Of a DNA stretch of 64,000 nucleotides, positions 8,830 through 44,738 are shown piece by piece. The position numbers were made by a program, and so were the translations under genes. This DNA comes from Patescibacteria group bacterium (GTDB lineage Bacteria > Patescibacteriota > Patescibacteriia > UBA9934), in NCBI GenBank assembly GCA_018062825.1, contig JAGORL010000001.1:125432-189431 (forward strand). The letters are read 5' to 3'. Each line of letters begins with the position of its first letter. Position 1 is the first letter of the stretch. The notes under the pieces are model-generated. The model ran no database searches. It was not told the DNA's origin and saw only the letters and a list, made by a program, of their open reading frames with translations.

Positions 8830-8856
8830 CACAACTCGTGCACGCCTCTTTTTTTG
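8821..8856 (+). terminator. hairpin + T7 overlapping hflX stop
   Basis: GAGGCGT-agcacaactcgtgc-ACGCCTC followed by TTTTTTT; sits only ~10 nt before the next gene start. Confidence 0.5.
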
Positions 8857-16600: not shown

Positions 16601-19600
16601 GTAGCCCAAGCGAGATCGTCGTTGACGGCTTCCGTGCTGTTCGTGACGGTCGAACCGTCTATGTTATCGCACCAAATCTTCCAGGAGCGATCACCCCGTC
16701 AGCGCCAACAACCGGTTATGTGAATACATACGTATTGTCATACAACCAAGGCGCTAGCGATAGCACGGAAATGATCTTTGATCAGATTCTTGAAAACTTC
16801 ATGTTCGGTATCAATATCAGTGACGTTGGACTCTGTGTTGATAGCGGGGGAGACTTCGTGGTTGAGGATGACGGCACGGGTATGTCATGTTCAAGCGATC
16901 TTGAGTGTGGCGGCGTTGGCGGAGTCTGTGCTTCAGATAAGGCAAAGATTCGTCGTGATACGCAGCGTTTGACGGATATGAGTGACATTGCTGCACTTGT
17001 TAATGATTACGGCATTGAAAACGGTGCCTGTTCCGGTAGTCAGGCGCTGTGTTCTGCGGATAGTCAGTGTCCAGCAACAGAGACCTGCGATCCAATCGTT
17101 CCAACGTTGCCGTCGGGAACTTATATTGCCGGTCTTGCTACAAGTAGCTGGCCATCATGGGATTCCTTGCTCGGCGGCGCCCTTGGTGCAAATGCTCTTC
17201 CTGCCGATCCTTTGAACATGTATCAGTCATGTGGCGTTGGCACTGGCATGGCTGCCACATTTGATGCGCAAACCTGTGTTGATGAAGTACAGGGTAAGTA
17301 TGTGTGTCCGGTCGGTTCAAGCGTGTACCACTATCGCGCTGTCGGAAATCGCGACGCTGTACTTTACGCTGATCTTGAAGACGATTCCGTTGAATGGGCA
17401 GCTGATATTGATACAAGCGCTGCGGATACCGTAACAATTCAGATCGGAAACAGCTCATCAACCGCTGAAGGCTTTGGATCAACGCTTGTTTGTAACGATG
17501 CAGCAGTGGGTGACGCTTGGGGCTTCTCAGCTGTTTGTGGCGACGGCATCCTTGGCGCAACTGAGGTGTGTGAAGTTGGTGATGTCGGCGGATCTTCTAC
17601 GGCCTGCGATGCTGATGGTAACGGCACAATTGATGGCGTGCAGTCGCAGATCTGTAACAGCACGTGTAGCGGCTTTGTGAATAATCCAGCCGCCGCCTGT
17701 ATCGCACCAAGTTGCGGCGACGGCATTGTTGATGGCGGTGAAGAGTGTGATGACGGTTCATCAAATGGTCAGTACGGATTCTGTGGTTCTGACTGTTCTT
17801 ATGACACAGCATTCTATTGTGGCGATGGCTTACTTGCTGGTGGTGAGGTCTGTGACTGTGGCGCAGCGCCGCTCATGTCACCACTTGCTGATTCTCGAGC
17901 ATTCTCATCTGGTGCGGGTACGTGCTCGGGCTTAAACGGTGTTTATAACGCAAGCGCTACCGCAAGCTGCGCGTGGAATTGTGCTGGTCCTGCCGGTTTC
18001 TGTGGTGATAACACCGTACAAAGCGGTGAGCAGTGTGATGGTGAGGCGCAAACCTGGGCAGGTGAGTTGTGTACGTCAAATGCTGGCGATCGCAAGGGAT
18101 TGCCATGTACTGAAGACGCCTATTGTAAAGCCGGCGTTGGCGCTGCAGCCTCTGCGGTATGTGGTGGAACCGCTCCCGCACGTCAGGCGTGTCAGGTTGG
18201 TTACACACGTGTTCGTGAATGTGATAACGGTCCGGGTGGTAGCTGTACCTATGATGCCGGTTGGGTAGCTACAGCGTGTACAGAGATCGGATCTTGTGGT
18301 GATGGCGTTGTTGATCCAGATGAAATGTGTGATGACGGTAATACCGATAGTACTGATGGTTGTACCGCAACCTGTCAGGCAAATGTGTGTGGCGACGGCT
18401 TTGTTTACTCAGGAGAGGAAGAGTGTGATGAGGGCGCAGGAAACGGCGCAGCCTGTGATTCTGCCTACGGATCAACATGTACTTCCTGTACTACATCTTG
18501 TAGGTACACCGTTTCTTCTGGTGAGTTCTGTGGTGACGGTGTCAGAAACGGTAATGAATTCTGTGATGCGAGCGCTATTCCATACCGTTGGTTTGATACT
18601 ACGGTCAGCGGTTTGGGCTTTGTTACCGATATGACCCTAGGTGACACCTGTTACACCCTCGGCAGCACGAAAGTTGAAGGTGGAAAGACCTACACCTGCC
18701 GAAGCGTTGGTATCTGTAACGGCGGATCAAGCAATGGTCAGTACTGCACTGCATCTTCTATTCTGGGAACATTCGGTACCGATGTCGCTGACTGTGGCAG
18801 CGAGATCTTCTTGATAGATGGTGAGTCAAAAATAGGTAATGGTGAGTGTGTAAAACCAACCTGTTCCGGCACGTGTGGCAGCGCTTGCCCGTTCTCGTAC
18901 GCTAGCGCTTCATTACTCATGACGCCAAATCAACCAGGTGCGCCAGCTAGCTCCACCGTCTCGCTCTACTCGTTTAGCGACGACTCAACAGCGACCCTGC
19001 CAAACGCCGCTTCAATCACCATTCCTTCCTGTAACGCCGCCACCGGCCTCACGGCTACACTTGATACCTCGGGTATTGATCTGCCTGATACGTACGTTGT
19101 CTTCATTACTGACAGATCGGGATCGATGGCTACATCAGCTTTGTCTGGTGAGGGTATGAATGTTGCGAAGGATGTCGTCCAAGATGGTATCGAAACCTTA
19201 TTTGATGAGCTCGGCGAAGAGATGTTCATCTCACTTGTTGATTACAGCTCAACTGCCTCATCATTCCCAACTTCTGGTTTCTATGGACCTAATGATGAGA
19301 GTCTCTTACTTGCAGAAGTGGAGACATATGTGGCGAGTGGGTCAACGGAAACAGATGATGCGATCAATGCAGCGAAGACACGGCTAGATTCTGTCTTTGA
19401 TAATGGCAATATTCGTCGAGTAGCAATCTTGCTTTCAGACGGTGTGCCAAATTCTACTTCAGCAACAGATACGGCAGCTGAAGCCTTCAAAGATGCCGGC
19501 TACGAGCTCTACACGATCGCTCTCACAAACACCAGCAGTTTGATTGATAACATGAATGGCTGGTCATCAAATAATGAAAATTGGGACTCAGATGATGGTG

Positions 19601-19917
19601 ATGAGCCAAACGTCTACAATCCAGTTACGGGCATTGACTATGCCTATGATGGCGATACTTCGGGAGAGCTAGAAGATATCTACGATCAAATTATTGCTTC
19701 TATCGTTGGTATGGCGATTACGGTGGTAAGTGTGGACGGCGACGATACCGCACTTGATAGCGCTACAGTTACCGCTGGTTCAAATATCGCTTTGCCATGG
19801 CCTTCAAACTTTGAGTGCGATGGCATTGGGGAACAGACTGTGCCAATTCAGATCACCTTCGGTGGCCTTGGTCGGGTAGTGCTCAAGGATGTAAACGTCA
19901 ATTATTGCGCTCCGTAA
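10603..19917 (+). CDS. giant (about 3100 aa) secreted multidomain surface protein: T4SS-pilin-like N-term, IPT/TIG-like repeats, Cys-rich CGDG..EECDDGN..GDGCS repeats, C-terminal vWA/MIDAS domain (probable start GTG 10651)
   Basis: single uninterrupted ORF; N-terminus paralogous to the preceding gene (GTG-AAA start, signal peptide ending VHA/Q, FVWMTSGGSEEKVSRAKKIL); x4 I.SISP..G..G..VTI.G..FG; DRSGSM...ETDD...LLSDG vWA motifs near 19090-19720. Confidence 0.7.
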   Translation: MVRLQQLLVIFSNHRLVKRLLSSLLIALSLGFAGSLAWPSFVPEVHAQATAALDGLEETNESIGLGDQPLEIIIGNIIRVALGFLGIIAVCIILYGGFVWMTSGGSEEKVSRAKKILINGVIGLGLVMTSLAIATFVMNAISGATGSSANGGSTGGGNGGIGLGGGSSSTFEVTAISPQGELAIRNVVAQITFSKSVDEESVAGRIAVTNVVTGEEVPGTLSVRNSRVSFVPSTPCPEPNGDRFCFDANTQYRVSVESGVESTGGITLTCTVASCSGDFVTGELVDVASPDALVTLPDNNASVSVDAFIDTQVQATDDAGLSVVEFQVADVPFDAMPTSGTSALVSSVWDTTSLELGARYRLTGVVFDQAGNSDDDTATVTVRGEWCFNGVLDTDQGETGIDCGGDSGSANYCGSCAGSSCEVNADCGSGASCVTGVCTIVPEITSISPDNAAPGSFVTISGDGFGQAAGSVTFGFGLAGELTAPLAACSENWSPRQIIVEVPQGGVDGAILVAAASGLTDATNDENGISLNDFDVNDVNRPGICAVTPDAGVATSAVVLTGAGFGASQGESEVYFNESIEAGSYVSWAESGANITVPPLAAGEYPVTVVVDGVTSNAVAFDVVTEVDINPVITSVTPGSGGIGQYITLQGADFGTSIGTVFLDSVESGRRAIASIDFPDACADDIWSETEVTVIIPDGYSDGGFDSLVPGAYELTLQSSRGDLSNTVAFNVTSAQPTPGICAIDPSQGAAGDVVTIIGDNFGSTAGTVTFSAGLSAVSGDWEDGEISVTVPAGTQTGSVTVATEAGESNGVTFTVGASATGAAAPVTASYAWMFSTGEIPQTPQVIVTCSDTQVSGVPNATFTQEVCINAVVYVEFTADMNPATLDDALTVARCTAGGDNPCDTTEVISGSYSVNDHAVRFTPVDLLAQSSTYEVRVSTAAQSVDAVALDEDVSWEFTTRSDATLCNIERVVVSPVTKTLTVINDTAPYQALPVTGCVVTDPESYTWSWATDESYARFNSAVDTSCVGGTSSCATVEALAEGEALVTATEVSESVAGINGSGELIVNFTDPYVTQAWPNCTEACTNAEIGARFNTPMNQVSIEAAGAVRLYACANELCTSLTPIIGATANCLSDDAGNCIGFALAPLSLSPSDFYRVVISESVESMSGVPLIRPNYGTDYSWTFRVREDATVCAIDRITVEPADVVVNTIGDTRNYTGTAYGAADSCSVSGQRLAGYAYNWGWTDPIEDENNDNNAATRVANWYNNASVDSAPGDVVLGCTSSCVSAGSAPYSAICGDGYLDVANGEECEDGNVASGDGCSSSCLREGRDTFGVCGNEVVDRTPAGAGEDCDDGARVSGDGCSADCLSEGSSAIGATCGNNDIARNVTTLAGEECDDGNGTNNDGCSAQCLNEGSPTLASVGGAVCGDGSVDSPAESCDDGNTVNGDGCSDSCLFEGSSLAYSVGSVCGDGVIGIGEECEDGNSKSGDGCSKKCTLEGSSSSYAAPSFCGDGIIGVGEVNACEVGMNGDGRTDPEQIAIIPDEAVFEVDPATDKAIATIEVSEDSSGLSATTSLTLTCSATSDNDCPDPSVYGVGTGNCCMARPEVTLFPSGSNMCRNTAIYLVSSEELDLNTFMQSTTGGAVTVTTPRMYAKLDLVATGGVCPTSHTTLAQNHTKNIFVRAWWFVRDIFFKNAQADSGDCVVPIVGYEQTPMGDGTFKIAMKYGALLEPNVGYTIVVEGDNVVSDAVVDGVRSRYGVGINGTQEIVFKTGPDACALDAVQVIDTEDETPYTFTFLDEEHEYSAAAYALRGGVTAEIQSIPGVYAWSWSSWLSDAEDLFSATQGSGDGDTATIMTEGQNGEATIVAIAEVTDDELGIGAGEVSGTAPAYALLCENPWPNPSVAYPFTDTSAGIPVGAVNAGGWMRFALSYCRDAGNAGTADDLGALTAVVAQNPESEGVLKEYLFPVDDGSGDAIGIRVVSNVNYHGALAWYEAQGFAGSPSEIVVDGFRAVRDGRTVYVIAPNLPGAITPSAPTTGYVNTYVLSYNQGASDSTEMIFDQILENFMFGINISDVGLCVDSGGDFVVEDDGTGMSCSSDLECGGVGGVCASDKAKIRRDTQRLTDMSDIAALVNDYGIENGACSGSQALCSADSQCPATETCDPIVPTLPSGTYIAGLATSSWPSWDSLLGGALGANALPADPLNMYQSCGVGTGMAATFDAQTCVDEVQGKYVCPVGSSVYHYRAVGNRDAVLYADLEDDSVEWAADIDTSAADTVTIQIGNSSSTAEGFGSTLVCNDAAVGDAWGFSAVCGDGILGATEVCEVGDVGGSSTACDADGNGTIDGVQSQICNSTCSGFVNNPAAACIAPSCGDGIVDGGEECDDGSSNGQYGFCGSDCSYDTAFYCGDGLLAGGEVCDCGAAPLMSPLADSRAFSSGAGTCSGLNGVYNASATASCAWNCAGPAGFCGDNTVQSGEQCDGEAQTWAGELCTSNAGDRKGLPCTEDAYCKAGVGAAASAVCGGTAPARQACQVGYTRVRECDNGPGGSCTYDAGWVATACTEIGSCGDGVVDPDEMCDDGNTDSTDGCTATCQANVCGDGFVYSGEEECDEGAGNGAACDSAYGSTCTSCTTSCRYTVSSGEFCGDGVRNGNEFCDASAIPYRWFDTTVSGLGFVTDMTLGDTCYTLGSTKVEGGKTYTCRSVGICNGGSSNGQYCTASSILGTFGTDVADCGSEIFLIDGESKIGNGECVKPTCSGTCGSACPFSYASASLLMTPNQPGAPASSTVSLYSFSDDSTATLPNAASITIPSCNAATGLTATLDTSGIDLPDTYVVFITDRSGSMATSALSGEGMNVAKDVVQDGIETLFDELGEEMFISLVDYSSTASSFPTSGFYGPNDESLLLAEVETYVASGSTETDDAINAAKTRLDSVFDNGNIRRVAILLSDGVPNSTSATDTAAEAFKDAGYELYTIALTNTSSLIDNMNGWSSNNENWDSDDGDEPNVYNPVTGIDYAYDGDTSGELEDIYDQIIASIVGMAITVVSVDGDDTALDSATVTAGSNIALPWPSNFECDGIGEQTVPIQITFGGLGRVVLKDVNVNYCAP
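14491..15200 (+). repeat. tandem ~35-aa cysteine-rich repeats inside giant ORF (CGDG.{5,8}EECDDGN.{3,5}GDGCS..C..EG, about 7 copies); a second, looser block at ~17520-18560
   Basis: periodic repeat visible in the translation and as recurring tgtggtgatggc...gatgacggtaa...ggtgatggttgctc DNA. Confidence 0.8.
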
Positions 19918-30800: not shown

Positions 30801-30833
30801 AACAAAACAACCCCGCGAAGGGTTGCTTTGTTG
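30801..30833. repeat. hairpin AACAAAACAACCCC-gcgaa-GGGGTTGCTTTGTT, variant of the repeated hairpin family
   Basis: 13/14 bp stem; shares the AACAAAACAAC arm with hairpins at 28713, 31711 and 32069. Confidence 0.5.
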
Positions 30834-30927
30834 CTTACTCCAGGGCAACTTTGCTCATAAAATAGTCCTCCGTGGTTCGAATACAATTTTCGATCCCAGT
30901 TTATGCTCGCTAGGTTTTAAAAAAAAT

Positions 30928-30956
30928 GAGACCCCAGACGCTTGGCGCGGGGTCTC
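30928..30956 (-). terminator. rho-independent terminator of HD-like gene
   Basis: GAGACCCC-n13-GGGGTCTC preceded on + strand by A8 (T8 after hairpin on minus strand). Confidence 0.7.
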
Positions 30957-31002
30957 GGTGAGTGCAGCCTTGAAGCGGCGCTCGAGCATCTGGTAGGTCT
31001 GG

Positions 31003-31617
31003 CTAGGCTCGACAGCGTCTGGCACCAGGCCAGGGATCGCTGTCCGACAGGGGGTGATCGAACCACAGTCGCGCACTGGCGACGTCGCACATGTGCGCGA
31101 CTGCCGCGAGCGGACCCATCCGGCGCTCACGCGGCGAATAGTCATTGATCTCACCCTCGGCGTACCGCAGGCCATTCTCCTGTTCGGGCGTGAGCACGAT
31201 TCCGTACTCGCTCAGCTTCTTCATGCGGAAGGCTTGGTGGTCCTCCTTCCTTTCCATGCCAACACGATGCTGGAGCTGACCATCGTTCCCCAGCTCGTAC
31301 TTCCAGGGCTTCTCGACGTCGTGGAGGTACACGACGAGCAGAAGGTCAGAGAGCGAGAAGGGGAGCGGACGCAGCGCGCTCAGAGTCTCGTACTGCACCA
31401 CAGCCAGGTTCATGATCTCCTGAACGTGGTCGTGGTAGCCACCTTGCCAGGCTTGGTGGTTATTGGTCGAGCCCTGCACCGTCTGGAACAGGGCGAGGTT
31501 GTCCTTGAGAATGCTCTGACAGGCTGAGCGGTTGGGCTCATCCATCATGCCGAGCATGCTGTCGATTGAATGGTATTCCGGCACGGTACCTCCAGTAATC
31601 ATGACATCACAATCCAT
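31003..31617 (-). CDS. hypothetical protein, possible HD-domain phosphohydrolase (GC-rich gene)
   Basis: 204 aa; GGYHDHVQEIMNL ... VVYLHDVEKP resembles H..HD...D metal-binding pattern; about 60% GC versus about 50% flanks. Confidence 0.35.
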   Translation of the reverse strand: MDCDVMITGGTVPEYHSIDSMLGMMDEPNRSACQSILKDNLALFQTVQGSTNNHQAWQGGYHDHVQEIMNLAVVQYETLSALRPLPFSLSDLLLVVYLHDVEKPWKYELGNDGQLQHRVGMERKEDHQAFRMKKLSEYGIVLTPEQENGLRYAEGEINDYSPRERRMGPLAAVAHMCDVASARLWFDHPLSDSDPWPGARRCRA

Positions 31618-31710
31618 CTTGGAAGTGATTATTAATTATAATGAGATTTTTCAAAAAAGTCAATATATCAGGGCGGCTAATTTTCATATATTGCTTGACA
31701 TATTGCAAAA

Positions 31711-31738
31711 CAAAACAACGCCCTGAAGCGTTGTTTTG
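31711..31738 (-). terminator. terminator hairpin, family member (CAAAACAACGC-cctgaa-GCGTTGTTTTG)
   Basis: 11-bp stem directly 3' of GIY-YIG gene stop on minus strand; 17-mer CAAAACAAAACAACGCC identical to the 28707 copy. Confidence 0.7.
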
Positions 31739-31785
31739 TATCGATAAGGTCCTGTGGATTGCTCTCCCACTAGGATAGTACTGGT

Positions 31786-32052
31786 CTATGTAAGACTCTC
31801 TTTGATACGTCGTAGTAACGGCACTGAGATCGAGCCACTCTTTTTTACCGAAGATTCACGAAGCCGAGCCGTCAGCTCATTTGTATAGGCCTCATAATAA
31901 ACTAGACGAAATGGTCGATAAGGCCGAGTTGAGTCAACTTCGCCCGTATTATGTTGGTGTAAACGTCTTTCCAGATCGTTCGTGGAGCCCTTGTAGAAAT
32001 AGTTACCCTCCTTCATGCTTTGTAAAACATAGAAGAACCACCATTTTTTCAT
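31786..32052 (-). CDS. GIY-YIG nuclease superfamily protein (88 aa, stand-alone)
   Basis: FFYVLQS.KEGNYFYKGSTNDLERRLHQHN matches the GIY-(10)-YIG + R + E/N core. Confidence 0.7.
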   Translation of the reverse strand: MKKWWFFYVLQSMKEGNYFYKGSTNDLERRLHQHNTGEVDSTRPYRPFRLVYYEAYTNELTARLRESSVKKSGSISVPLLRRIKESLT

Positions 32053-32068
32053 ATAGTTCTATGATAGC

Positions 32069-32094
32069 AAAATAACGCCTAAGGCGTTATTTTG
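32069..32094 (-). terminator. terminator hairpin, family member (CAAAATAACGCC-ta-GGCGTTATTTTG) downstream of tRNA-Asp
   Basis: 12-bp stem, U-rich 3' flank on minus strand. Confidence 0.6.
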
Positions 32095-32163
32095 CTTCAT
32101 CTCGGTGCGACTTTGTGACCCGTATGCTACTTGCATGGCGGGCCACGTCGGTCGCGACCGACG

Positions 32164-32240
32164 TGGCGGGACGGACGGGACTCGAACCCGCAACTTCTGC
32201 CGTGACAGGGCAGTGCTCTAACCAATTGAACTACCGTCCC
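32164..32240 (-). tRNA. tRNA-Asp (anticodon GUC), CCA encoded
   Basis: reverse complement GGGACGGTAGTTCAATTGGTTAGAGCACTGCCCTGTCACGGCAGAAGTTGCGGGTTCGAGTCCCGTCCGTCCCGCCA folds as cloverleaf: 7-bp acceptor, D-arm GTTC/GAGC, anticodon stem CTGCC/GGCAG loop CTGTCAC, T-loop TTCGAGT. Confidence 0.85.
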
Positions 32241-32907: not shown

Positions 32908-33279
32908 TCAGTTCGCGCGTGCCTCGAGAACCTGGATGAGCTCCGGGCGGGAGCTGAGGCTCGTGAGGTACAGGCGTTCGTCGGTCTGCACCACGTATCC
33001 CCAGAGCAGGGACTCGTGAACGACCGGATTCGCATGCTGGATGCTCTCCCAGCCTTCGAGGGTTTCGATGCGGCTGAGGCCTCGGAGTGGCTCGATCAGT
33101 CCACCGTAGTAGACCTGATCCAGGCACACGCTGGAGAAGAACCCCAGCATGATGCCGATGAGAAGGAAGAACGTCGCAACGTCCTTATCCTCGGTGCGGG
33201 TGCGGGTAGCGATGCGGGAGATGAGGCTGGACATGGTGTCCTCCTGCGGGGTGGGAACGGGGAAGGAGCGTAGGTACAA
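32908..33279 (-). CDS. small hypothetical membrane protein (GC-rich segment)
   Basis: one TM helix FFLLIGIMLGFFSSV; last gene of the GC-rich minus-strand string. Confidence 0.35.
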   Translation of the reverse strand: MYLRSFPVPTPQEDTMSSLISRIATRTRTEDKDVATFFLLIGIMLGFFSSVCLDQVYYGGLIEPLRGLSRIETLEGWESIQHANPVVHESLLWGYVVQTDERLYLTSLSSRPELIQVLEARAN

Positions 33280-33361
33280 GAGTAATCATAGCAAATTTGA
33301 GCCATTTTGTCAATCAAAAACCCCACGTCATCTTGCGATGCGTGGGGGACGTTTTAGCCTG

Positions 33362-33724
33362 CTAGAGGCTGAAGATACGCTCGAACTCATCGATGCCCAC
33401 CGGCTTCGAGACCGCGTGAGCGTTCAACCGCTGCAGCTCTCGATAGTCAGCATGGTGGACGTCGCCCGAGTTCGCGATGAACAAGGGCGAAGGGTTGAGG
33501 CTCTGCGTAATCCGGTAGATATCAAGGGCGGTTGCGCCCGGGAAGTTGATGTCGCACACGACCACATCGAAGTGCTCGCTGCGCAAGAGGCGCATGGCTT
33601 CCACGCCCTCCGTCGTGTGCACGACGTTCAGGCGCTTGCCTAGTCGCGCGAAGATTCGAGGGAAGAGTTGTACGTAGACGGTGCCGAGTGCGGCATCATC
33701 TTCCACGATCAGCATCTTCTGCAT
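33362..33724 (-). CDS. stand-alone response-regulator receiver (CheY-like) protein, copy 1
   Basis: MLIVEDD...FDVVVCDINFPG...SKP receiver motifs; no output domain. Confidence 0.6.
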   Translation of the reverse strand: MQKMLIVEDDAALGTVYVQLFPRIFARLGKRLNVVHTTEGVEAMRLLRSEHFDVVVCDINFPGATALDIYRITQSLNPSPLFIANSGDVHHADYRELQRLNAHAVSKPVGIDEFERIFSL

Positions 33725-33825
33725 GCCTGAAAGCCTATCCACGAAACCTCCGGTGAGAAAGGAAAAGGGACCAGAGGTCATTGCTGACTTGGTCCCCACG
33801 TTTGCCGTCAGGTCGAGCCTGGCAG

Positions 33826-35151
33826 CTACTTGTTGTCGGTGTCCGCTTCGGTGCGGACCGGTTCGAAGTTGCCGCCTTCGTCGACGGTGATCGTCGGCTC
33901 GACGTCTTCGATGAACTCGGCGAACTGCGGCGGTTTCGGGCTGCACGTGGGCTGCCCGTCACCGTTCGTCTGACCCAGGCCCCAGCACCGAGCGATCGCG
34001 CCCGACGTGGAGGGGAGGGTCGTGTAGGAGCCACCACTGACGACGATCACCTCCTTGAGGTTGATCGTCACGCCGTCGCCATCGCCAGCGACGAGCACGT
34101 GCCCACCGTTGTCACCCGCCGGACCCTTGCGCAGGTCCGGGGCGCAGACCTCCCACCTCTCGTAGTGAGAGAGGTTGGGCCAGTCGAGCTGCACGCTTTC
34201 GAGGGCGCGCTTCTCGTACTCGATGATCGTGCACTTCTGAGCCACGCCCTCGACCTCGACGGTCGCGAGCACGGTGTCGCCGGAGACGGCCACGTAGTAC
34301 TCGTGGCTCACGCTGCTCTCTCCGGGATCCGGCACGGTGGCCGGCACCACCGCGACCGGCTCGGAGCCGATCGTGGCGTTGTCACCACCGGTCGTGAGTG
34401 CGTACAGCCCGATCCCGCCGCCCGTGAAGGCGACGAACCCGAGCACACACACGAGGACCACGGCCATGACGGCCACAGCCCCGATCAGCGGTCGGTGGTT
34501 GCTCGACGCCCGGGCGACGGGGATGTCATCCTCGTCATCCGGCTCGTACTGCACCTCGGCCACCATGGGCGGCTTGGTGTCCCCGAACCACGCTCGATCG
34601 TCGACGTCGGTCGGCCCCGGCGTATTCACGGGGGGCGGCGGCGCTGCCGTCGGCTGAGGCGGCTTCAGGGAGAGCGGCGGGGGCGGGGCATCGGAAGGGG
34701 CGTCGTCCGCCTCCTCCTCCGCTCGCCTGGCCATCTCTTCCTTGGTGAACACGCCGGTTCCATCGCTCGGGTCCGGCGGGGGGAAGACCGGCTGCCTGCT
34801 GATCGTTCCCCCACGCGCACTCGGTCGCGGCGCAGGGCGCGGGTTCGGTCCCGCCCTGAGGGACTCGGGACCGACGCTCGTCGCCGGGAAGGCGACCCGC
34901 GTGCTGGATCCGCGCTCGGTGCTCGGCCCGGGGAGATCCCCGAGCGACTCGTCGAGCATGTCACCACCGACCGGTTCGAGATCTTGTCCCGACAGGTCGA
35001 TGATGGGCTCGTGAGCCCTGCTGCTCGGAACCGTCGCGACCGGAGCGGGGCGAACGGCGGGCGTGGGACGCCCCTCGTCGCTGCTCCTGTCGGCCTCGTC
35101 ACTCATGTCGTCGTCCATCGGACGACCGTCCTGTTCGTCTCCGCCCATCAT
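33826..35151 (-). CDS. single-pass membrane protein, long Pro/Asp-rich cytoplasmic N-region + 4-Cys extracytoplasmic domain (cassette copy 1)
   Basis: RBS GGAGG-5nt-ATGATG at 35151; TM helix LIGAVAVMAVVLVCVLGFVAF; C-domain ...CTIIEYEK...LDWPN.S..ERWEVC..DL......G..L.......I.L.EVI...G.YT.L.ST.GA.ARCWG.GQ.NGDGQP.C.PKP shared with the copy at 35768. Confidence 0.5.
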   Translation of the reverse strand: MMGGDEQDGRPMDDDMSDEADRSSDEGRPTPAVRPAPVATVPSSRAHEPIIDLSGQDLEPVGGDMLDESLGDLPGPSTERGSSTRVAFPATSVGPESLRAGPNPRPAPRPSARGGTISRQPVFPPPDPSDGTGVFTKEEMARRAEEEADDAPSDAPPPPLSLKPPQPTAAPPPPVNTPGPTDVDDRAWFGDTKPPMVAEVQYEPDDEDDIPVARASSNHRPLIGAVAVMAVVLVCVLGFVAFTGGGIGLYALTTGGDNATIGSEPVAVVPATVPDPGESSVSHEYYVAVSGDTVLATVEVEGVAQKCTIIEYEKRALESVQLDWPNLSHYERWEVCAPDLRKGPAGDNGGHVLVAGDGDGVTINLKEVIVVSGGSYTTLPSTSGAIARCWGLGQTNGDGQPTCSPKPPQFAEFIEDVEPTITVDEGGNFEPVRTEADTDNK

Positions 35152-35314
35152 GAGGGCCTCCAGTGCTGGTGGAAGGTGCATGTCACGAACAAAGATGCCC
35201 AAGGAGGGCAAGATCGTCGTCGACCGCGAACTATAGCCAAAAATAAGAAAAACGTCAAGCAAAGGCAGAAAAGAAACACCCGCCACATTCCGGTAAGGGA
35301 TGGGCGGGTACGTG

Positions 35315-35683
35315 CTAGGTAAGTCCGAAGGCCGCGGCAAGTGCCTGGGGGCCATACGGTTTATAGAGGACCGTGACCCCGCGCTCCTTGAGCGTGGTCA
35401 CGTCGGCATGATTGGGATTGCCCGTATTGGCTACGAAGAGCGCTTGGGGCGAGGCTTGTCCCACAAGGTCATGCACCTCGACCGAATTCCCGTGAGGAAA
35501 CTCGATGTCAGACAAGACGTAGTCGAACTTCTTGGTCATGATCGCCTTCCTGGCCTCGTGGCCGTCGGCAGCGATCGTGATGACGGTCGTGTGACCGGCA
35601 TTTGCGAACAGTCGAGCGCAGGTGCGCTGAGCCGCCCGCTGCAAGAGATCGTTATCCTCCACGATCAGGACAAAGTATTCCAC
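35315..35683 (-). CDS. stand-alone response-regulator receiver (CheY-like) protein, copy 2 (GTG start)
   Basis: VLIVEDND...FDYVLSDIEFP...YKP; RBS GGAGA upstream. Confidence 0.65.
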   Translation of the reverse strand: MEYFVLIVEDNDLLQRAAQRTCARLFANAGHTTVITIAADGHEARKAIMTKKFDYVLSDIEFPHGNSVEVHDLVGQASPQALFVANTGNPNHADVTTLKERGVTVLYKPYGPQALAAAFGLT

Positions 35684-35767
35684 ACCACTCTCCTATAAAA
35701 GATGAGAGGGGACCGACGCACAGCATGGCTGATTGTCGATCCCCTCGAGGGTTGCTGCGAAGTACTG

Positions 35768-36412
35768 CTACTTCGCGGCGGCGTTCTGGGCGACCACGTT
35801 GGCGGGCGCGGCGGGCTTCGGCGTGCAGGCGGGCTGCCCGTCACCGTTGACCTGGCCAGCACCCCAGCAGCGCGCGAGCGCTCCGGGGGTGGAGACGAGG
35901 GCGGTATAGTCGCCGGTGGTCGTGATGACCTCCGACAACTTGATCCGCTTCCCGCCGACCGTGAGCACCATCGCGCCGTGGGCATCGGCGGCCTCCTTCT
36001 TCAGGTCGGTGCCGCAGATCTCCCACCGCTCCTTGGAGCTCTTGTTCGGCCAGGTCAGGTCGACGCCCTCGATCAGGTCCTTCTCGAAGGTCACGATGGC
36101 ACACAGGTGATCCTGGCGCTTGATCGTGACCGGGGCGAGGCGGACGTCGTCGTTGACGGCGACCGTGATCGGACCGGGGGTGATGGTCACCGCGAGCGGC
36201 GTCTCGCCGGGGTCGCTGGTCTCCTCGGCCACCACCACGGTCGGCTGGTTGCCGACGGCGGGGGTGCGCGACATGTAGCCGACGCCGATCATGAGGATGA
36301 CCATGAGCACGCCGAGAAAACCGGCGATCATGAGGGGGTTGTAGCCCCCTTGGTCGTTCTTGACCTCGCTCGTGTGGGTGGTGGTCTCGGTCGTGATGGA
36401 CGGCTCGGACAT
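35768..36412 (-). CDS. single-pass membrane protein with the same 4-Cys extracytoplasmic domain (cassette copy 2)
   Basis: RBS GGAGG-4nt-ATG at 36412; MSEPSITTE...; TM LMIAGFLGVLMVILMIGVGY; C-domain ...CAIVTFEK...LTWPNKSSKERWEICGTDL...ARCWGAGQVNGDGQPACTPKP. Confidence 0.5.
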   Translation of the reverse strand: MSEPSITTETTTHTSEVKNDQGGYNPLMIAGFLGVLMVILMIGVGYMSRTPAVGNQPTVVVAEETSDPGETPLAVTITPGPITVAVNDDVRLAPVTIKRQDHLCAIVTFEKDLIEGVDLTWPNKSSKERWEICGTDLKKEAADAHGAMVLTVGGKRIKLSEVITTTGDYTALVSTPGALARCWGAGQVNGDGQPACTPKPAAPANVVAQNAAAK

Positions 36413-36537
36413 GGTGCCTCCAGAGGCGTGGGAAGGTGCGTGTCGCGATAAGTGAAGCCGTTGTGGCCTACCGATCGCTGACCAACTATAATAGCAGAAA
36501 AACCCTGTTTCGTCAAGGTTGCTGATTGCAAGAACAA

Positions 36538-36568
36538 ACAAAAACACCGCTAATTTTAGCGGTGTTTT
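36538..36568 (-). terminator. rho-independent terminator downstream of rplT (possibly bidirectional)
   Basis: AAAAACACCGCTAA-ttt-TAGCGGTGTTTTT perfect 13-bp stem flanked by A/T runs. Confidence 0.8.
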
Positions 36569-36576
36569 TGATCTGC

Positions 36577-36921
36577 TTACTTAGCAGACTCAACGATCTT
36601 TTTGAAGATTGCTGGCTGATGTTCTGCAATCTGGGCCAAAACCTTACGATCCAAGCTGATCTTTGCCTTCTTAAGGTTGGCAATGAAAGCGGAGTAGGTG
36701 GTGCCAAGTTCACGCACAGCGGCGTTGATCTTAAGGGTCCAGAGGTTGCGGAAGGTGCGCTTCTTAGCACGGCGGTCGCGGAAAGCGTAAACACCGGCTT
36801 TAAGCATAGCTGGGCGAGCAAGGCGGATCTTGCTCTTTCGGCCCCAGCGGTAGCCTTTCACGCGCTTCAAGAGGTTCTTGCGGCGCTTTGTATGTTGTGT
36901 ACCGCGTTTGACGCGTGGCAT
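36577..36921 (-). CDS. rplT: 50S ribosomal protein L20
   Basis: MPRVKRGTQHTKRRKNLLKRVKGYRWGRK... canonical L20. Confidence 0.9.
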   Translation of the reverse strand: MPRVKRGTQHTKRRKNLLKRVKGYRWGRKSKIRLARPAMLKAGVYAFRDRRAKKRTFRNLWTLKINAAVRELGTTYSAFIANLKKAKISLDRKVLAQIAEHQPAIFKKIVESAK

Positions 36922-37849: not shown

Positions 37850-38261
37850 TGGTGGACTTGAGGAGAGTTGAACTCCTGTCCGGTCAGCCGCCCGATAGTG
37901 ATTATTCCAAGCTCATGCACGCTTGAGAGTACGACCAGAGCGCTAAAGGCGTGCCGTAAATGCGCTCGTGAAGATCCTTTCGCCAGAGGTCACGTTGCCG
38001 GAAAAGATAACAGCAACGTCAATCCTAGATAGATATAACACCTGTGATTCTTACTCTAGGCAGCAAGAGACAGATGGTTGCAGGCTTTATTAAGCGGCAA
38101 CAAACGCGAATGAAGGTGTAGCAAATGCCGAAGCAAGTGCGGCCTTAGCGCGTGAGAATACGTTGGCAGGTATTCGAATTGCATCATTGGGTTGCGGGGT
38201 AATGGTGCACCCCCGGCTTGATCATCTATCGTTTGTACTGCCGTCGATTCCCGGCAAGCCC
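37850..38261 (-). ncRNA. ssrA: tmRNA (ssrA), about 412 nt
   Basis: 5' GGGCUUGCCGGGAAUCGACGG (tmRNA 5' consensus GG.UUCGACGG); 3' AGGAG-UUCAACU-CUCCU-CAAGUCC-ACCA; acceptor GGGCUUG/CAAGUCC with G3:U70; internal ORF ending GCG UUU GUU GCC GCU UAA UAA; 12 nt downstream of smpB stop. Confidence 0.7.
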
Positions 38262-42086: not shown

Positions 42087-42241
42087 GCTTTGTTAAGGTC
42101 GGCCTGACCTCGATTTCGGGGACTTCGTGGAACGGTCGTGACGTCTCCTCCTCGTCGCGATTCGCGCCCGCGAAGTCTCCAAAGCCGAGGTCATTTTTAT
42201 TGAAAAATTGCTAGTTTTAGCCAAGGAATGACAGGGAAATC

Positions 42242-42270
42242 TTGACATTTCCCGTATTTTTTGCTACTAT
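42242..42270 (+). promoter_or_regulatory. near-consensus sigma70-type promoter (TTGACA-17-TACTAT) driving the GC-rich gene pair
   Basis: cTTGACAtttcccgtattttttgcTACTATagactg. Confidence 0.55.
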
Positions 42271-42458
42271 AGACTGTTCGAGAAAGCAGCCAAATGAACG
42301 GTATTCCCTCGGCTCAATTGCGTTCCACTCCTCCAGGGACGCAGTTGAGCCACGGGAGTGCCGTTCGGGCGCTACCACAGAACGGGCCTCGCCCGAACAC
42401 CACGCGTCCTTTCCACTCACTGTCAGTTTGCCGCTTTCACTAGCGGCTGGAGGATCCG

Positions 42459-43391
42459 ATGATCAAGCTCATCTCCCTGTTCGCCCTCGCCGCTTTCGCC
42501 CCGGTCGCCATGGCCGACGCCCCGCCCGAGTGCGTGACGCCGTGCCCCCCGGGCCCGACGGTCACGAGCGGCAGCAACTCCGCGGAGGCCGTCCAGGCCG
42601 ACGTGCAGCAGCTCCGCAGCGACCTCCGGCGCCTCAAGGCGCGGGTGGTCACGCTCGAAGGCCAGCAGGCCACCGACGAGGCCACCCGCCTCGCCGAGAT
42701 CGAGCGCCGCCTGTCGGTGCTCGAAGGCAAGATGGACGCCCTCGACCCCGCCGCCGTCAAGGTGGAGCTCACCTCGCTCCGCAGCGACCTCACCGCCCTC
42801 ACCGGGCGCGTGGCGGCGCTCGAGGAGGACATGCGTCTCATCAAGGATCGCGTCACCGCCCTCGAGGTGGCACGGGTCGCGGAGGTCATCATGCCCCGCC
42901 TCGTCACCTTCGCGACCAGCGTCGGTGCCAGCGGTTTCGCGGCCAACGGCCACGACGTCGTCTCCGACGACATGGTGTTCCACGCCTCTCCGTCCGCGGG
43001 TGGCGCGTTCGACCTCTCGGTCGGCGTGCTCGTGCGGCCCGAGGAGATCCCGATGTACTTCGGTGCCAGCGTCGCCCCGCGCCTCTCGTTCGACGAAGGG
43101 TACGGCGGCTCGCTCATCGGACGCGTCGGCGGAACGCTGGGGCCGGCCAAGGGGATGGAGCTCGGCTTGCTCGGTGGCGTGGACTTCTTCCACGACCCGA
43201 ACCTGCAGGCTCCGGACTGGATGCCCAACCCCATCCGGCAGAGCTGGCGTGGGCTGGTCGGCGCCGAGTACAACTACATCTTCTTCCGGAGTGATTCCGG
43301 ACAGGAGATCGGACTCGGTGTCGAAGCCAGCGTCCTGCCCGGTCGCGAGATCGAGGGACGGTTCCTGGGTGCGGTCAAGGCTCGGTTCTAA
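42459..43391 (+). CDS. secreted protein: signal peptide + coiled coil + beta-rich C-terminal domain ending in Phe (GC-rich)
   Basis: RBS GGAGGA; MIKLISLFALAAFAPVAMA signal; heptad-rich 60-150; alternating hydrophobic strands; C-terminal ...GAVKARF. Confidence 0.5.
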   Translation: MIKLISLFALAAFAPVAMADAPPECVTPCPPGPTVTSGSNSAEAVQADVQQLRSDLRRLKARVVTLEGQQATDEATRLAEIERRLSVLEGKMDALDPAAVKVELTSLRSDLTALTGRVAALEEDMRLIKDRVTALEVARVAEVIMPRLVTFATSVGASGFAANGHDVVSDDMVFHASPSAGGAFDLSVGVLVRPEEIPMYFGASVAPRLSFDEGYGGSLIGRVGGTLGPAKGMELGLLGGVDFFHDPNLQAPDWMPNPIRQSWRGLVGAEYNYIFFRSDSGQEIGLGVEASVLPGREIEGRFLGAVKARF

Positions 43392-43619
43392 CCTCTCTGG
43401 TCAGTGACTTCGGTCGCTGATCGGACAGGTCGTGGCGCTGTGTGACATACGAAAGTATGTTGCATGGCGCCTATTCGTTTACCAAAAAATTGACGAAAAT
43501 AGAAAAATAGGCTACGGTACGGCGTCACTTTTCAAAGCTACCAAGAGTTGCACTTGCGGCATTTCTTGGGAGACTTGAAGAGGAATTGGCCTCTCAAGCT
43601 CACACATTCTGGAGGGAAC

Positions 43620-44714
43620 ATGTTCGGGTCGTGGTTTGCGGTTCTCGTCGGGCTCTTGGAGGCTCCGGCCTTCGCAGCAGACGGTTCGCTCGTCAGTGCT
43701 CCACCGTCGGTGGATCGCATGAGGAGCGACTTGGAGACCCACGCGGGTCTCATCGAGGCGCTCAACAAGCGCGTCGAGACGCTCGCGCTGCAGGTTCCGA
43801 ACCTGCAGCAGGGGCCGCGCACGGTTCCGTCCGCGACGCGCATCGCCGAGCTCACCGAGTTCAGGAGTCGCCTGAAGTACCTCGAGGAGAACGGCGCGAG
43901 CGACGAAGAGCTCGCCGCGCTCGCAACGCGCGTCGACGCCTTCACGGCCAACATCGGTGCACTGGAGGGACGCATCGGTGTGGTGGAGCGCGGCCTCAGC
44001 ACGAACGCCACGATCGACGCCGAGCAGAGCATCGCGATCGCGAAGCTCCAGGTAGAGGTCGAAAACCTTCATCGGGCCGACGTCTACCTCACGGCGGAAA
44101 TCGTGGATGTCGACGTCAGGCAACGCTCATCGGGAGCTGGCGACATGGACCGGCTGCCGGTCAGCATGGAGCTCCTGTTCATCTCTGGCCAGGAGATGGG
44201 TGGCGGCAAGTACTACGAGTACCTCAGCGAGGACGTGGTCTGGCAGCGTTACCCGAACACGGCAACGCTCCTTGGTGGAGGTTTCGGCCTTCACTTCACC
44301 CCCAAGAAGCAGAAGCGGGAGCAGCTCTTCGGCTTCGGCATCGAGGCTCGAGGCATGTATGCCCCCGCGGGCGGCGCCTCGTTCGAGGCCCTGCTCTTGC
44401 CGACCGCCTTCGTCGATCCGCGCCGCCGCGCGAGTGTCGGCATGCTGCTCGGCTACCAGCTCCGAGCGATCGATCGCGCACAGAATGCCCCGAGCTTCGC
44501 GCGTGAGCGTCAGATCGAAGCGTACACCGACCACGGTCTCGTCGTCGGCGCCGCGATCGGGATCACGGTGATCGGATACGGGACCTCCTCGGGGCAAACC
44601 CCGGGCGAGCTCGTGCTCCGGCCCGAGATCAAGGTCGGCATCGCGAAGACTGCCAGCTACGGGTCCGTCGGCATGGCGGTCTTGTGGAGGATCGGGATTC
44701 CGAAGGACGAGTAG
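43620..44714 (+). CDS. paralogous secreted coiled-coil + beta-rich protein (GC-rich)
   Basis: RBS GGAGGG-3nt-ATG; signal MFGSWFAVLVGLLEAPAFAA; shared motif MRSDLETH versus LRSDLRRL with preceding gene; beta-strand-like C-terminus. Confidence 0.5.
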   Translation: MFGSWFAVLVGLLEAPAFAADGSLVSAPPSVDRMRSDLETHAGLIEALNKRVETLALQVPNLQQGPRTVPSATRIAELTEFRSRLKYLEENGASDEELAALATRVDAFTANIGALEGRIGVVERGLSTNATIDAEQSIAIAKLQVEVENLHRADVYLTAEIVDVDVRQRSSGAGDMDRLPVSMELLFISGQEMGGGKYYEYLSEDVVWQRYPNTATLLGGGFGLHFTPKKQKREQLFGFGIEARGMYAPAGGASFEALLLPTAFVDPRRRASVGMLLGYQLRAIDRAQNAPSFARERQIEAYTDHGLVVGAAIGITVIGYGTSSGQTPGELVLRPEIKVGIAKTASYGSVGMAVLWRIGIPKDE

Positions 44715-44738
44715 GAATCACTGATCACAAGGCGTACC

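What the first reader, a model, noticed from the sequence alone, without database searches (positions are those of the whole stretch)
33362..36412. Tandemly duplicated two-gene cassette: stand-alone receiver domain + single-pass membrane protein with conserved 4-Cys extracytoplasmic domain, no kinase in sight
Within the most GC-rich segment the minus strand encodes, in transcription order, membrane protein B (36412-35768), receiver 2 (35683-35315), membrane protein A (35151-33826), receiver 1 (33724-33362) and a small membrane protein. The two receivers are clear CheY-like domains with no output domain. The two membrane proteins share a C-terminal ectodomain with four conserved cysteines (C-(T/A)I(I/V).(Y/F)EK ... 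L.WPN.S..ERWE(V/I)C..DL ... ARCWG.GQ.NGDGQP.C.PKP). Protein A has in addition a roughly 250-aa Pro/Asp/Glu-rich cytoplasmic region. Even the untranslated leaders are homologous: CTGGAGG-ccctc-ATGATG versus CTGGAGG-cacc-ATG, preceded by near-identical ...gtgggaaggtgc(g/a)tgtc(g/a)cg. This shows a recent duplication of the whole unit. No histidine kinase, Hpt or sigma factor is present in the window. A receiver paired repeatedly with a Cys-stabilised extracytoplasmic sensor-like protein does not match a classic two-component layout. It may represent an undescribed signalling or surface module, or cargo of a foreign element.
Basis: partly seen in the sequence, partly recalled or inferred. Interest (0 to 1): 0.75.

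Follow-up and report, generated by a model that had tools for sequence, protein, structure and literature searches.

The report
Orphan receiver plus membrane-protein gene pairs
A tiny group of uncultured ultra-small bacteria (Patescibacteria) carries a GC-rich, fast-evolving island. It holds two old duplicate operons, each pairing a single-pass surface protein of unknown fold with a small phosphorylatable switch protein; the pairing is real and undescribed, but so rare that its function can only be guessed.

Summary
Two CheY-like receivers pass Pfam's cut-off and keep every phospho-acceptor residue. Two bitopic membrane proteins share a C-terminal domain of about 130 aa (45% identity) with four invariant cysteines. 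No kinase or Hpt domain was found in any of the 38 ORFs scanned across the window.

Corrections:
- The duplication is old, not recent (45% and 30% protein identity, synonymous sites near saturation).
- The island is three separately promoted units, not one transcript.
- A conserved hairpin with a U-tract separates each membrane gene from its receiver.

The window is a Patescibacteria chromosome, and both island junctions recur in independent assemblies. GC3 is 0.73-0.94 in the island against about 0.45 in native genes. I found no integrase, no att-like flanking repeats, no donor and no phage or plasmid relative.

An exhaustive search of 1.84 billion protein representatives found four members of the ectodomain family. 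The receiver subfamily is equally narrow. A fair AlphaFold model (pLDDT 75) matches no PDB fold; only the last 45 aa resemble one RCC1 repeat. The pairing recurs in the few related lineages seen, though one has lost receiver 1.

Best guess, at low confidence: a membrane hub protein plus a docking single-domain response regulator, phosphorylated from elsewhere.

The parts
36539..36570 (-). rplT (L20) intrinsic terminator; upstream boundary of the island
   Evidence: 14-bp stem followed by a T-run; conserved in L001 and L002
36488..36516 (-). Promoter of unit 1 (TTGACG-17-TATTAT)
   Evidence: 10 of 12 consensus matches; 4 promoter-like sites found against 0.8 expected; conserved in L001 and L002
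36442..36482 (-). 5' leader hairpin of unit 1 (GUC...GAC base)
   Evidence: Leader fold -27.1 kcal/mol, z -2.2. An equivalent hairpin forms in four of the five leaders folded (both memA leaders, both memB leaders); the small-gene leader shows no significant structure (z +0.39). The GUC/GAC base is invariant in all five aligned leaders
35768..36412 (-). memB: 214-aa bitopic protein. 26-aa N-terminal tail, TM at about residues 27-47, linker, ectodomain with C104, C133, C182 and C196
   Evidence: Annotated in NCBI as hypothetical protein KBC55_00890. GC3 0.94
35695..35746 (-). Hairpin between cistrons (12-bp stem) plus U-rich tract, between memB and RR2; a probable partial terminator or attenuator
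   Evidence: -34.8 kcal/mol, z -3.9, 0 of 200 shuffles as stable. The spacer is 92% identical to L001, whereas the adjacent RR2 coding DNA is about 50% identical
35315..35683 (-). RR2: 122-aa single-domain receiver (E9-D10, D59, T87, K108-P109)
   Evidence: Pfam PF00072, 39.7 bits against a 30.2 cut-off; key residues. NCBI calls it 'response regulator transcription factor', but it has no DNA-binding domain
35266..35308 (-). Terminator-like hairpin plus T-run after RR2
   Evidence: Read from the sequence: cccgcc...ggcggg followed by tgtttcttttc. A conserved G+C hairpin occupies the same place in L001
35230..35258 (-). Promoter of unit 2 (TTGACG-17-TATAGT)
   Evidence: 10 of 12 matches. Homologous to the unit 1 promoter and leader
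35182..35224 (-). 5' leader hairpin of unit 2
   Evidence: Leader fold -29.8 kcal/mol, z -1.9
33826..35151 (-). memA: 441-aa bitopic protein. 221-aa acidic, Pro-rich cytoplasmic region with conserved short motifs, TM at about residues 222-252, ectodomain with C307, C336, C389 and C403
   Evidence: NCBI calls a 478-aa version that starts inside the promoter (KBC55_00880). GC3 0.85
33754..33797 (-). Hairpin between cistrons plus U-rich tract, between memA and RR1
   Evidence: z -2.2 here, -5.1 in L001 and -5.4 in L007. In L001 the same hairpin ends the unit because RR1 is absent
33362..33742 (-). RR1: single-domain receiver, 126 aa from GTG 33742 (120 aa if from ATG 33724)
   Evidence: Pfam PF00072, 36.6 bits. 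GGAGG sits four nt before the GTG. The 126-aa form is the one called in L010
33316..33347 (-). Intrinsic terminator after RR1
   Evidence: -27.5 kcal/mol, z -3.7, followed by UUUUU
33285..33313 (-). Promoter of unit 3 (TTGACA-17-TATGAT)
   Evidence: 11 of 12 matches with an extended TG
32908..33234 (-). Small 108-aa bitopic protein (KBC55_00870). Always the last gene of the island
   Evidence: Present in L001, L007/L011 and L010. GC3 0.83

Best explanation
This is a clade-specific 3.6-kb island with foreign base composition, fixed between rplT and an AAA_33 kinase gene in a narrow group of Patescibacteria. It holds two anciently duplicated operons and a third small gene.

Each operon encodes two proteins:
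- First, an N-in/C-out single-pass membrane protein. It displays a beta-rich ectodomain of about 130 aa, probably with two disulfides, whose fold is unrecognised.
- Second, after a conserved hairpin and U-tract that should let only some transcripts through, a phosphorylatable single-domain response regulator.

Proposed working model: the membrane protein acts as a surface-exposed binding or landmark ('hub') protein. Its cognate receiver docks on the cytoplasmic tail of that protein in a phosphorylation-dependent way. The tail is short in memB and is a 220-aa acidic, proline-rich region with conserved short motifs in memA. The phosphoryl group would come from a kinase encoded elsewhere in the genome or from acetyl phosphate. 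The pair would therefore behave like a membrane hub with a CheY-like adaptor, not like a sensor kinase with its regulator.

Shown: gene structures, paralogy, conserved catalytic and Cys residues, promoter and hairpin architecture, recurrence of the adjacency, atypical composition, fast protein evolution.

Inferred: topology, disulfides, attenuation at the hairpin, physical docking, the source of phosphate, and any ligand.
For: - Adjacency and order (membrane gene, then receiver) hold in both paralogous units and in the related lineages found, even though the proteins have diverged to 30-60% identity.
- The receivers keep all phospho-transfer residues plus a family-specific A-N-(T/S)-G-x-x-x-H motif at the usual output face, despite only 30-39% overall identity. 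They are therefore under selection as working receivers.
- The four Cys, WP, ERW/F and ARCWG.GQ.N.DG motifs are invariant across six ectodomains.
- There is one hydrophobic segment per protein. K/R is biased to the N-side in five of six proteins and equal in the sixth.
- The memA cytoplasmic region keeps discrete motifs (MGGD..PMDDD.SDE, PDPSDGT..F.KE..AEEE.DD, DR.W..KP..AEV.Y) inside otherwise low-complexity sequence.
- The spacer hairpin between memB and RR2 is the best conserved DNA in the island: 92% identical to L001, against about 50% for RR2.
- No kinase or output domain is present in either protein or among the 38 ORFs scanned in the window.
Against: - No direct evidence links the two proteins physically.
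- The memB tail is only 26 aa and poorly conserved.
- One lineage (L001) lost RR1 but kept memA intact, so memA can apparently function without its receiver.
- dN/dS of 0.35-0.7 is also compatible with relaxed constraint.
- Only about four lineages exist, so co-evolution cannot be tested.
- The rest of the 406-kb contig could not be searched for kinases.
Confidence: 0.3

Rival explanations
1. Three-component system. memA and memB are accessory extracytoplasmic co-sensors that modulate a histidine kinase encoded elsewhere on the chromosome, and that kinase phosphorylates RR1 and RR2.
For: The receivers look fully phosphorylatable, so a phosphodonor is needed. The window has no kinase, but it covers only 64 kb of a 406-kb contig. 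Accessory membrane proteins that modulate kinases are an established class (my own knowledge, e.g. LiaF, YycH/I).
Against: Known accessory proteins are usually encoded with their kinase. Here neither unit, in any related contig found, carries a kinase. The receivers have no output domain, so the downstream step would still be unexplained.
Confidence: 0.2
2. Fast-evolving surface proteins (host attachment or antigens). The ectodomains are the functional point, under diversifying selection. The receivers are simply co-transcribed regulators that act elsewhere, with no direct partnership.
For: The island proteins have dN 0.23-0.60, against 0.01-0.06 for flanking genes at comparable dS. Divergence along the island is mosaic. 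The genome context is rich in surface proteins: a 3104-aa T4SS-pilin/VWA protein and a C-type lectin protein. RR1 is dispensable in L001.
Against: The receivers diverge even faster than the ectodomains (38% against 81% identity to L001), which is not expected of a generic regulator. The gene order was kept through an ancient duplication.
Confidence: 0.2
3. A conflict system (defence, exclusion or toxin-like) carried on foreign DNA.
For: Foreign-type composition, rapid evolution, patchy presence with loss of a gene, and no housekeeping link to the neighbouring genes.
Against: No match in PADLOC or PHROGs beyond generic receiver hits. No effector domain is recognisable. No relatives in phage, plasmid or IMG/VR collections. 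The chromosomal site is fixed in all relatives.
Confidence: 0.08
4. Decaying horizontally acquired cargo with no current function.
For: High dN/dS (up to 0.7), GC3 far from the host's, and loss of RR1 in one lineage.
Against: All reading frames are intact in about four lineages that have diverged to 34-81% protein identity, with invariant catalytic residues and cysteines. Near-consensus promoters, SD sites and terminators are conserved.
Confidence: 0.07
5. Assembly chimera or contamination from a high-GC organism.
For: An abrupt GC jump from about 0.50 to 0.70.
Against: Independent assemblies from other runs join the island to rplT/rpmI/infC/smpB on one side (L004) and to the AAA_33 gene on the other (L001, L010). 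The regions between genes have host-like composition and promoters.
Confidence: 0.01

Closest known systems
Single-domain (stand-alone) response regulators such as CheY, CpdR, DivK and PilG/PilH
   Same: About 120 aa consisting of a receiver domain only, with all phospho-acceptor residues kept. They must act through protein-protein contacts. The best named NCBIfam matches are CpdR and RssB-type models.
   Different: All NCBIfam scores are far below cut-off (about 30 bits against 180 or more). The subfamily is separated from every other receiver by a drop from 167 to 60 bits. No CheA, kinase or protease partner is nearby. The family carries its own A-N-T/S-G...H motif.
Bitopic polar hub proteins that position CheY-like regulators (FimV/HubP with PilG)
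   Same: By analogy only. These are single-pass membrane proteins with an extracytoplasmic domain and a long, very acidic, low-complexity cytoplasmic region that organises regulators, including a CheY-like protein. FimV as a hub protein required with PilG is described in bioRxiv 10.1101/116954. The acidic cytoplasmic region of FimV is from my own knowledge.
   Different: No sequence similarity. The orientation is opposite: here the N-terminus is cytoplasmic. There is no LysM or TPR domain. memB has almost no cytoplasmic part. No interaction has been shown here.
Accessory membrane proteins of two-component systems ('three-component' systems)
   Same: A non-kinase membrane protein with an extracytoplasmic domain, encoded next to a response regulator.
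   Different: Those systems include the kinase in or beside the operon, and the regulator has an output domain. Neither holds here.
RCC1-like repeat (PF13540/PF00415) beta-propeller proteins
   Same: The last 45 aa or so of the ectodomain (..YTAL.STPGALARCWG.GQ.NGDGQP) align to one RCC1 repeat: hhalign probability 93%, E 3.4e-7. Three of the four non-family hits in the 1.84-billion-protein search are RCC1 proteins; the fourth is a low-complexity repeat protein.
   Different: Only one repeat-like segment is present. The N-terminal half does not match (probability 1.8%). Pfam RCC1 models do not hit. The AlphaFold model matches no propeller or any other PDB fold.

Membership tests
Response regulator receiver domain (PF00072) | Profile score above Pfam's gathering threshold | tested here: met
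   39.7 and 36.6 bits against a 30.2 cut-off
Response regulator receiver domain (PF00072) | Acidic pair, phospho-acceptor Asp, Thr/Ser and Lys of the active site | tested here: met
   E/D9-D10, D59, T/S87 and K108-P109 are conserved in all four subfamily sequences aligned, and align with CheY D12/D13/D57/T87/K109.
Response regulator transcription factor, NarL/FixJ type (the label given by NCBI and JGI) | C-terminal DNA-binding HTH (GerE/LuxR) domain | tested here: not met
   The proteins are 120-126 aa and the receiver domain spans residues 5-118. No second Pfam domain is found.
Classical two-component system | Cognate histidine kinase (HisKA plus HATPase_c) in or next to the operon | tested here: not met
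   None among the 38 ORFs scanned in the window (37 of 127 aa or more plus the 88-aa GIY-YIG ORF) or in related contigs
Classical two-component system | A kinase anywhere in the genome able to phosphorylate these receivers | not testable with these tools
   Only 64 kb of the 406-kb contig is available.
RCC1-like beta-propeller | Several tandem RCC1 repeats forming a propeller | tested here: not met
Horizontally acquired genomic island / mobile element | Base composition and codon usage unlike the host's | tested here: met
   GC3 0.73-0.94 against 0.42-0.50 for native genes; GC up to 0.70 against about 0.50
Horizontally acquired genomic island / mobile element | Integrase or transposase, flanking direct repeats, or an identifiable donor or mobile relative | tested here: not met
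   No att-like flanking repeats. No integrase among the neighbours. No relatives in GTDB representatives, IMG/VR, phage or plasmid collections. A tRNA gene lies 0.7 kb away, but a native gene sits between it and the island.
Known anti-phage defence systems (PADLOC) | A significant match to a defence-system protein model | tested here: not met
   Only one borderline receiver hit, E 0.0099

The most novel reading that the evidence does not exclude
A kinase-less transmembrane signalling module peculiar to a Patescibacteria clade. A disulfide-stabilised ectodomain of a new fold senses a ligand on the host surface or in the environment. It passes this on, through its single TM helix and cytoplasmic tail, by recruiting or releasing a dedicated single-domain receiver. 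The two paralogous pairs would give two input specificities. The GC-rich orphan islands of this genome (this one, the 42.2-44.7 kb pair and the HD gene) would then be cargo from an unsampled high-GC source that was domesticated for the epibiotic lifestyle.
Probability: 0.12. Interest if true: 0.65.

Novelty: new variant of a known kind. Interest (0 to 1): 0.36.

Why it matters
If the pairing is functional, it would be a way of coupling an extracellular domain to a CheY-like switch without a dedicated sensor kinase. It would occur in organisms (CPR/Patescibacteria) whose signalling and host-contact biology is almost unknown, and whose streamlined genomes rarely keep paralogs (PMC12455944).

The finding also flags a curious genome feature. 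Several islands with GC3 of 0.75-0.94 encode orphan proteins for which no donor can be found. That bears on how ultra-small bacteria acquire and keep foreign genes.

The family's extreme rarity (about four lineages, all uncultured) limits both generality and testability.

Tried and rejected
- Family assignment of the ectodomain. Pfam, NCBIfam, PADLOC, PHROGs and a PDB sequence profile all gave nothing.
- Widening the family. The word-indexed search, the exhaustive 1.84-billion-protein HMM search and scans of GTDB genomes, IMG/VR and JGI metagenomes together found only six distinct ectodomain sequences, in about four lineages.
- 'The whole domain is a degenerate two-blade RCC1 propeller'. Rejected, because the N-terminal half does not match.
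- SD-sequestering hairpin (CCUUCC/GGAGG) in the leaders. Predicted only for memA, only 5 bp long, and not conserved in L001, so not claimed.
- Formal covariation of the 5' leader hairpin. Five sequences with indels gave only 3 compensatory pairs and a weak consensus, so it is reported as a per-sequence structure only.
- Empty-site comparison. The nearest GTDB relative carrying the flanking AAA_33 gene (56% identity, L014) has no synteny, so the island boundaries could not be confirmed that way.
- att sites. None found.
- Literature. Four full-text searches found no description of such a pair.
Full report
**What is there**

The window is a chromosome segment of an uncultured Patescibacteria (CPR) bacterium. 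memB is GenBank MBP9827692.1 / KBC55_00890, on a 406-kb contig. The surrounding genes are typical CPR housekeeping and surface genes: enolase, GAPDH, PGK, FtsA/FtsZ, NrdR, pyruvate kinase, rplT-rpmI-infC, SmpB, tmRNA, LexA/DinB, and a 3104-aa surface protein with a T4SS-pilin-like N-terminus.

Overall GC is about 0.50, but it reaches 0.60-0.70 between 33 and 36.5 kb.
- memB, 36412-35768
- RR2, 35683-35315
- memA, 35151-33826
- RR1, 33724-33362
- a 108-aa small membrane protein, 33234-32908

The minus-strand frames are the real ones. They carry the GC3 peak (0.73-0.94), the Pfam receiver hits and the protein-level paralogy. The long plus-strand ORFs are the usual by-product of high GC.

**Check of the observation**

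- Both receivers exceed Pfam's Response_reg threshold (39.7 and 36.6 bits against 30.2) and have no second domain.
- memA and memB align over their C-terminal 159 residues at 45% identity (E=6e-39).
- Across the six family sequences, four Cys and the motifs WP, ERW/F and ARCWG.GQ.N.DG..P.C are invariant.
- Each protein has one hydrophobic segment. K/R is enriched on its N-terminal side in five of six proteins and equal in the sixth. memA has 221 residues before the TM, with 42 D+E and 41 P.
- No HisKA, HATPase_c or Hpt domain occurs in the 38 ORFs scanned across the window, and no sigma-factor hit appears at E<=1e-5.

**Corrections to the anatomy**

The island is not one transcript. Reading the sequence and the consensus scan show three near-consensus sigma-70 promoters:
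- TTGACG-17-TATTAT at 36516-36488
- TTGACG-17-TATAGT at 35258-35230
- TTGACA-17-TATGAT at 33313-33285

That is four promoter-like sites in the region against 0.8 expected by chance. Each promoter follows a terminator-like hairpin of the preceding gene.

Each membrane-protein mRNA begins with a stable hairpin whose base (GUC...GAC) is invariant in five leaders, while the upper stem differs.

A strong hairpin followed by a U-rich tract lies between each membrane gene and its receiver (z -3.9 and -2.2 here; -3.9, -5.1 and -5.4 in relatives). No promoter precedes either receiver. The receivers are therefore presumably made from read-through transcripts, at lower levels than the membrane proteins. 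This is an inference.

The memB-RR2 spacer is the best conserved DNA of the island: 92% identical to L001, where RR2 itself is about 50% identical.

RR1 most likely starts at GTG 33742. A GGAGG sits four nt upstream, and the gene is called that way in L010.

**Age of the duplication**

The promoter-plus-leader regions of the two units are clearly homologous (score 26 against -7.2 +/- 4.1 in shuffles, 61% identity).

The duplication is not recent, however. The ectodomains are 45% identical and the receivers 29-30%, with pS of 0.46-0.69. The leaders are no better conserved than the coding DNA.

**Relatives and conservation of the pairing**

The word-indexed search of 5.8 billion clusters found three memB-type proteins. 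An exhaustive HMM search of 1.84 billion representatives found four family members; with the query sequences themselves, that makes six distinct ectodomain sequences in about four lineages.

Scans of GTDB species representatives and IMG/VR found none, and the JGI metagenome scan found only one contig already known. Neither phage nor plasmid records encode a relative.

A profile of the receivers finds five subfamily members at 167 bits or more, then drops to 60 bits for generic receivers.

The contigs show the following:
- The same strain in other runs (L004-L006, L008).
- A close relative (L010): memA 3' end, RR1, small gene, AAA_33.
- A second lineage (L001): rplT, memB, RR2, memA, small gene, AAA_33.
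- A third lineage (L007/L011): memA, RR1, small gene.
- A fourth lineage (L002/L003): memB only, on a short contig.

The order 'membrane gene then receiver' and the chromosomal site are thus conserved wherever they can be seen. In L001, however, RR1 is cleanly missing, from the memA hairpin to the promoter of the small gene.

These independent assemblies also exclude a chimera, because both junctions to native genes are reproduced.

**Composition and evolutionary rate**

GC3 is 0.94 (memB), 0.85 (memA), 0.73-0.79 (receivers) and 0.83 (small gene). Native neighbours have 0.42-0.50. The regions between genes are AT-rich with host-type signals.

Compared with L001, the flanking genes have dN 0.01 (rplT) and 0.06 (AAA_33, dS 0.85). 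The island proteins have dN 0.23-0.60 and dN/dS 0.35-0.72. RR2 has saturated synonymous sites and only 38% protein identity.

The receivers of different lineages and positions are all about equally distant, at 30-39%. The island is therefore compositionally foreign and evolving 4-10 times faster than its surroundings at the protein level. Even so, every frame, catalytic residue and cysteine is preserved, which argues against simple decay.

I found no integrase, no att-like repeat and no donor. The nearest GTDB genome with the flanking AAA_33 gene has no synteny and no island. Genomic islands and gene transfer are known in Patescibacteria, and paralogs are rare there (PMC12455944).

**What the ectodomain is**

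Nothing matches in Pfam, NCBIfam, PADLOC, PHROGs or PDB sequences.

Three of the four non-family hits in the exhaustive search are bona fide RCC1-repeat proteins; the fourth is a low-complexity repeat protein. A profile-profile comparison aligns the last 43 columns of the ectodomain with one RCC1 repeat at 93% probability. I built that repeat profile from those same hits, so the test is not fully independent. The N-terminal half does not match. I treat this as a local, possibly ancestral, resemblance and not as membership.

**How it most likely works**

The evidence supports a functional link between each membrane protein and its receiver:
- The order was kept through an old duplication and in all lineages.
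- The regulatory architecture is shared.
- The spacer element is conserved.

The evidence also supports receivers that are still phosphorylated. Neither protein has a kinase, Hpt or output domain.

The simplest model is that the receiver acts by binding its membrane partner's cytoplasmic tail. For memA that tail holds conserved short motifs in a disordered acidic region. The ectodomain would be a surface binding or sensing module, and phosphate would come from an unlinked kinase or from acetyl phosphate. This resembles hub proteins such as FimV that organise CheY-like PilG (and my own knowledge), but it is only an analogy.

I give this model 0.3. The rivals are:
- co-sensors of an unlinked kinase, 0.2
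- surface proteins with merely co-transcribed regulators, 0.2
- a conflict system, 0.08
- decaying cargo, 0.07
- an artefact, 0.01

**Verdict**

The finding is real, correctly located and undescribed. GenBank labels the genes 'hypothetical protein' and 'response regulator', and wrongly calls RR2 a 'transcription factor'.

It is a new variant within a known kind, orphan single-domain response regulators, joined to a membrane protein of an orphan family. Its restriction to a handful of uncultured lineages, the loss of one receiver in a relative, and the absence of any mechanistic handle keep the interest moderate.

Noticed in passing
window 42240-44720 (+): A second GC-rich island (GC 0.61-0.63, GC3 0.84-0.91). 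It holds two tandem, distantly paralogous genes (42459-43391 and 43617-44714; 26% identity). Each encodes a signal peptide, a coiled coil and a beta-rich C-terminal part; the first ends in Phe, as outer-membrane barrels often do. The only family hits are weak coiled-coil matches. It sits beside dinB and lexA.
   Followed up: partly
window 30801-31739 (-): The ORF at 31003-31617 (204 aa, H..HD-type motifs, no Pfam hit) also has foreign-type GC3 (0.76). It is bracketed by two 31-nt palindromic repeats, 30801-30831 and 31709-31739, that are 84% identical.
   Followed up: no
window 31786-32240 (-): A GIY-YIG endonuclease gene (88 aa) lies directly beside a tRNA gene (32167-32240). This may be a mobile homing-endonuclease insertion. 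In the close relative L010, the spacing after AAA_33 suggests a different arrangement.
   Followed up: no
window 36738-36759 vs 36419-36440 and 35159-35180: The conserved leader element just upstream of the SD of memB and memA (CGCACCTTCC..C.CTGGA) also occurs, at 82% identity, inside the rplT coding sequence. This is probably chance for a 22-mer, but L20 is an RNA-binding autoregulator in other bacteria.
   Followed up: no
window 8838-19917 (+): Two adjacent genes encode proteins with a T4SS-pilin-like N-terminus followed by Big_5, TIG, DUF4215 and VWA domains. One is 3104 aa long. They are followed by TSP3-repeat proteins and form a large surface-structure locus.
   Followed up: no
window 37850-38261 (-): A tmRNA gene (93.6 bits) lies between infC and smpB. 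Several long mechanical ORFs overlap it and should not be annotated as genes.
   Followed up: no
window 35315-35683 and GenBank MBP9827691.1: Public annotation calls RR2 a 'response regulator transcription factor' (NCBI) or a 'DNA-binding NarL/FixJ family response regulator' (JGI), although it has no DNA-binding domain. NCBI's memA model (478 aa) starts inside the promoter.
   Followed up: yes
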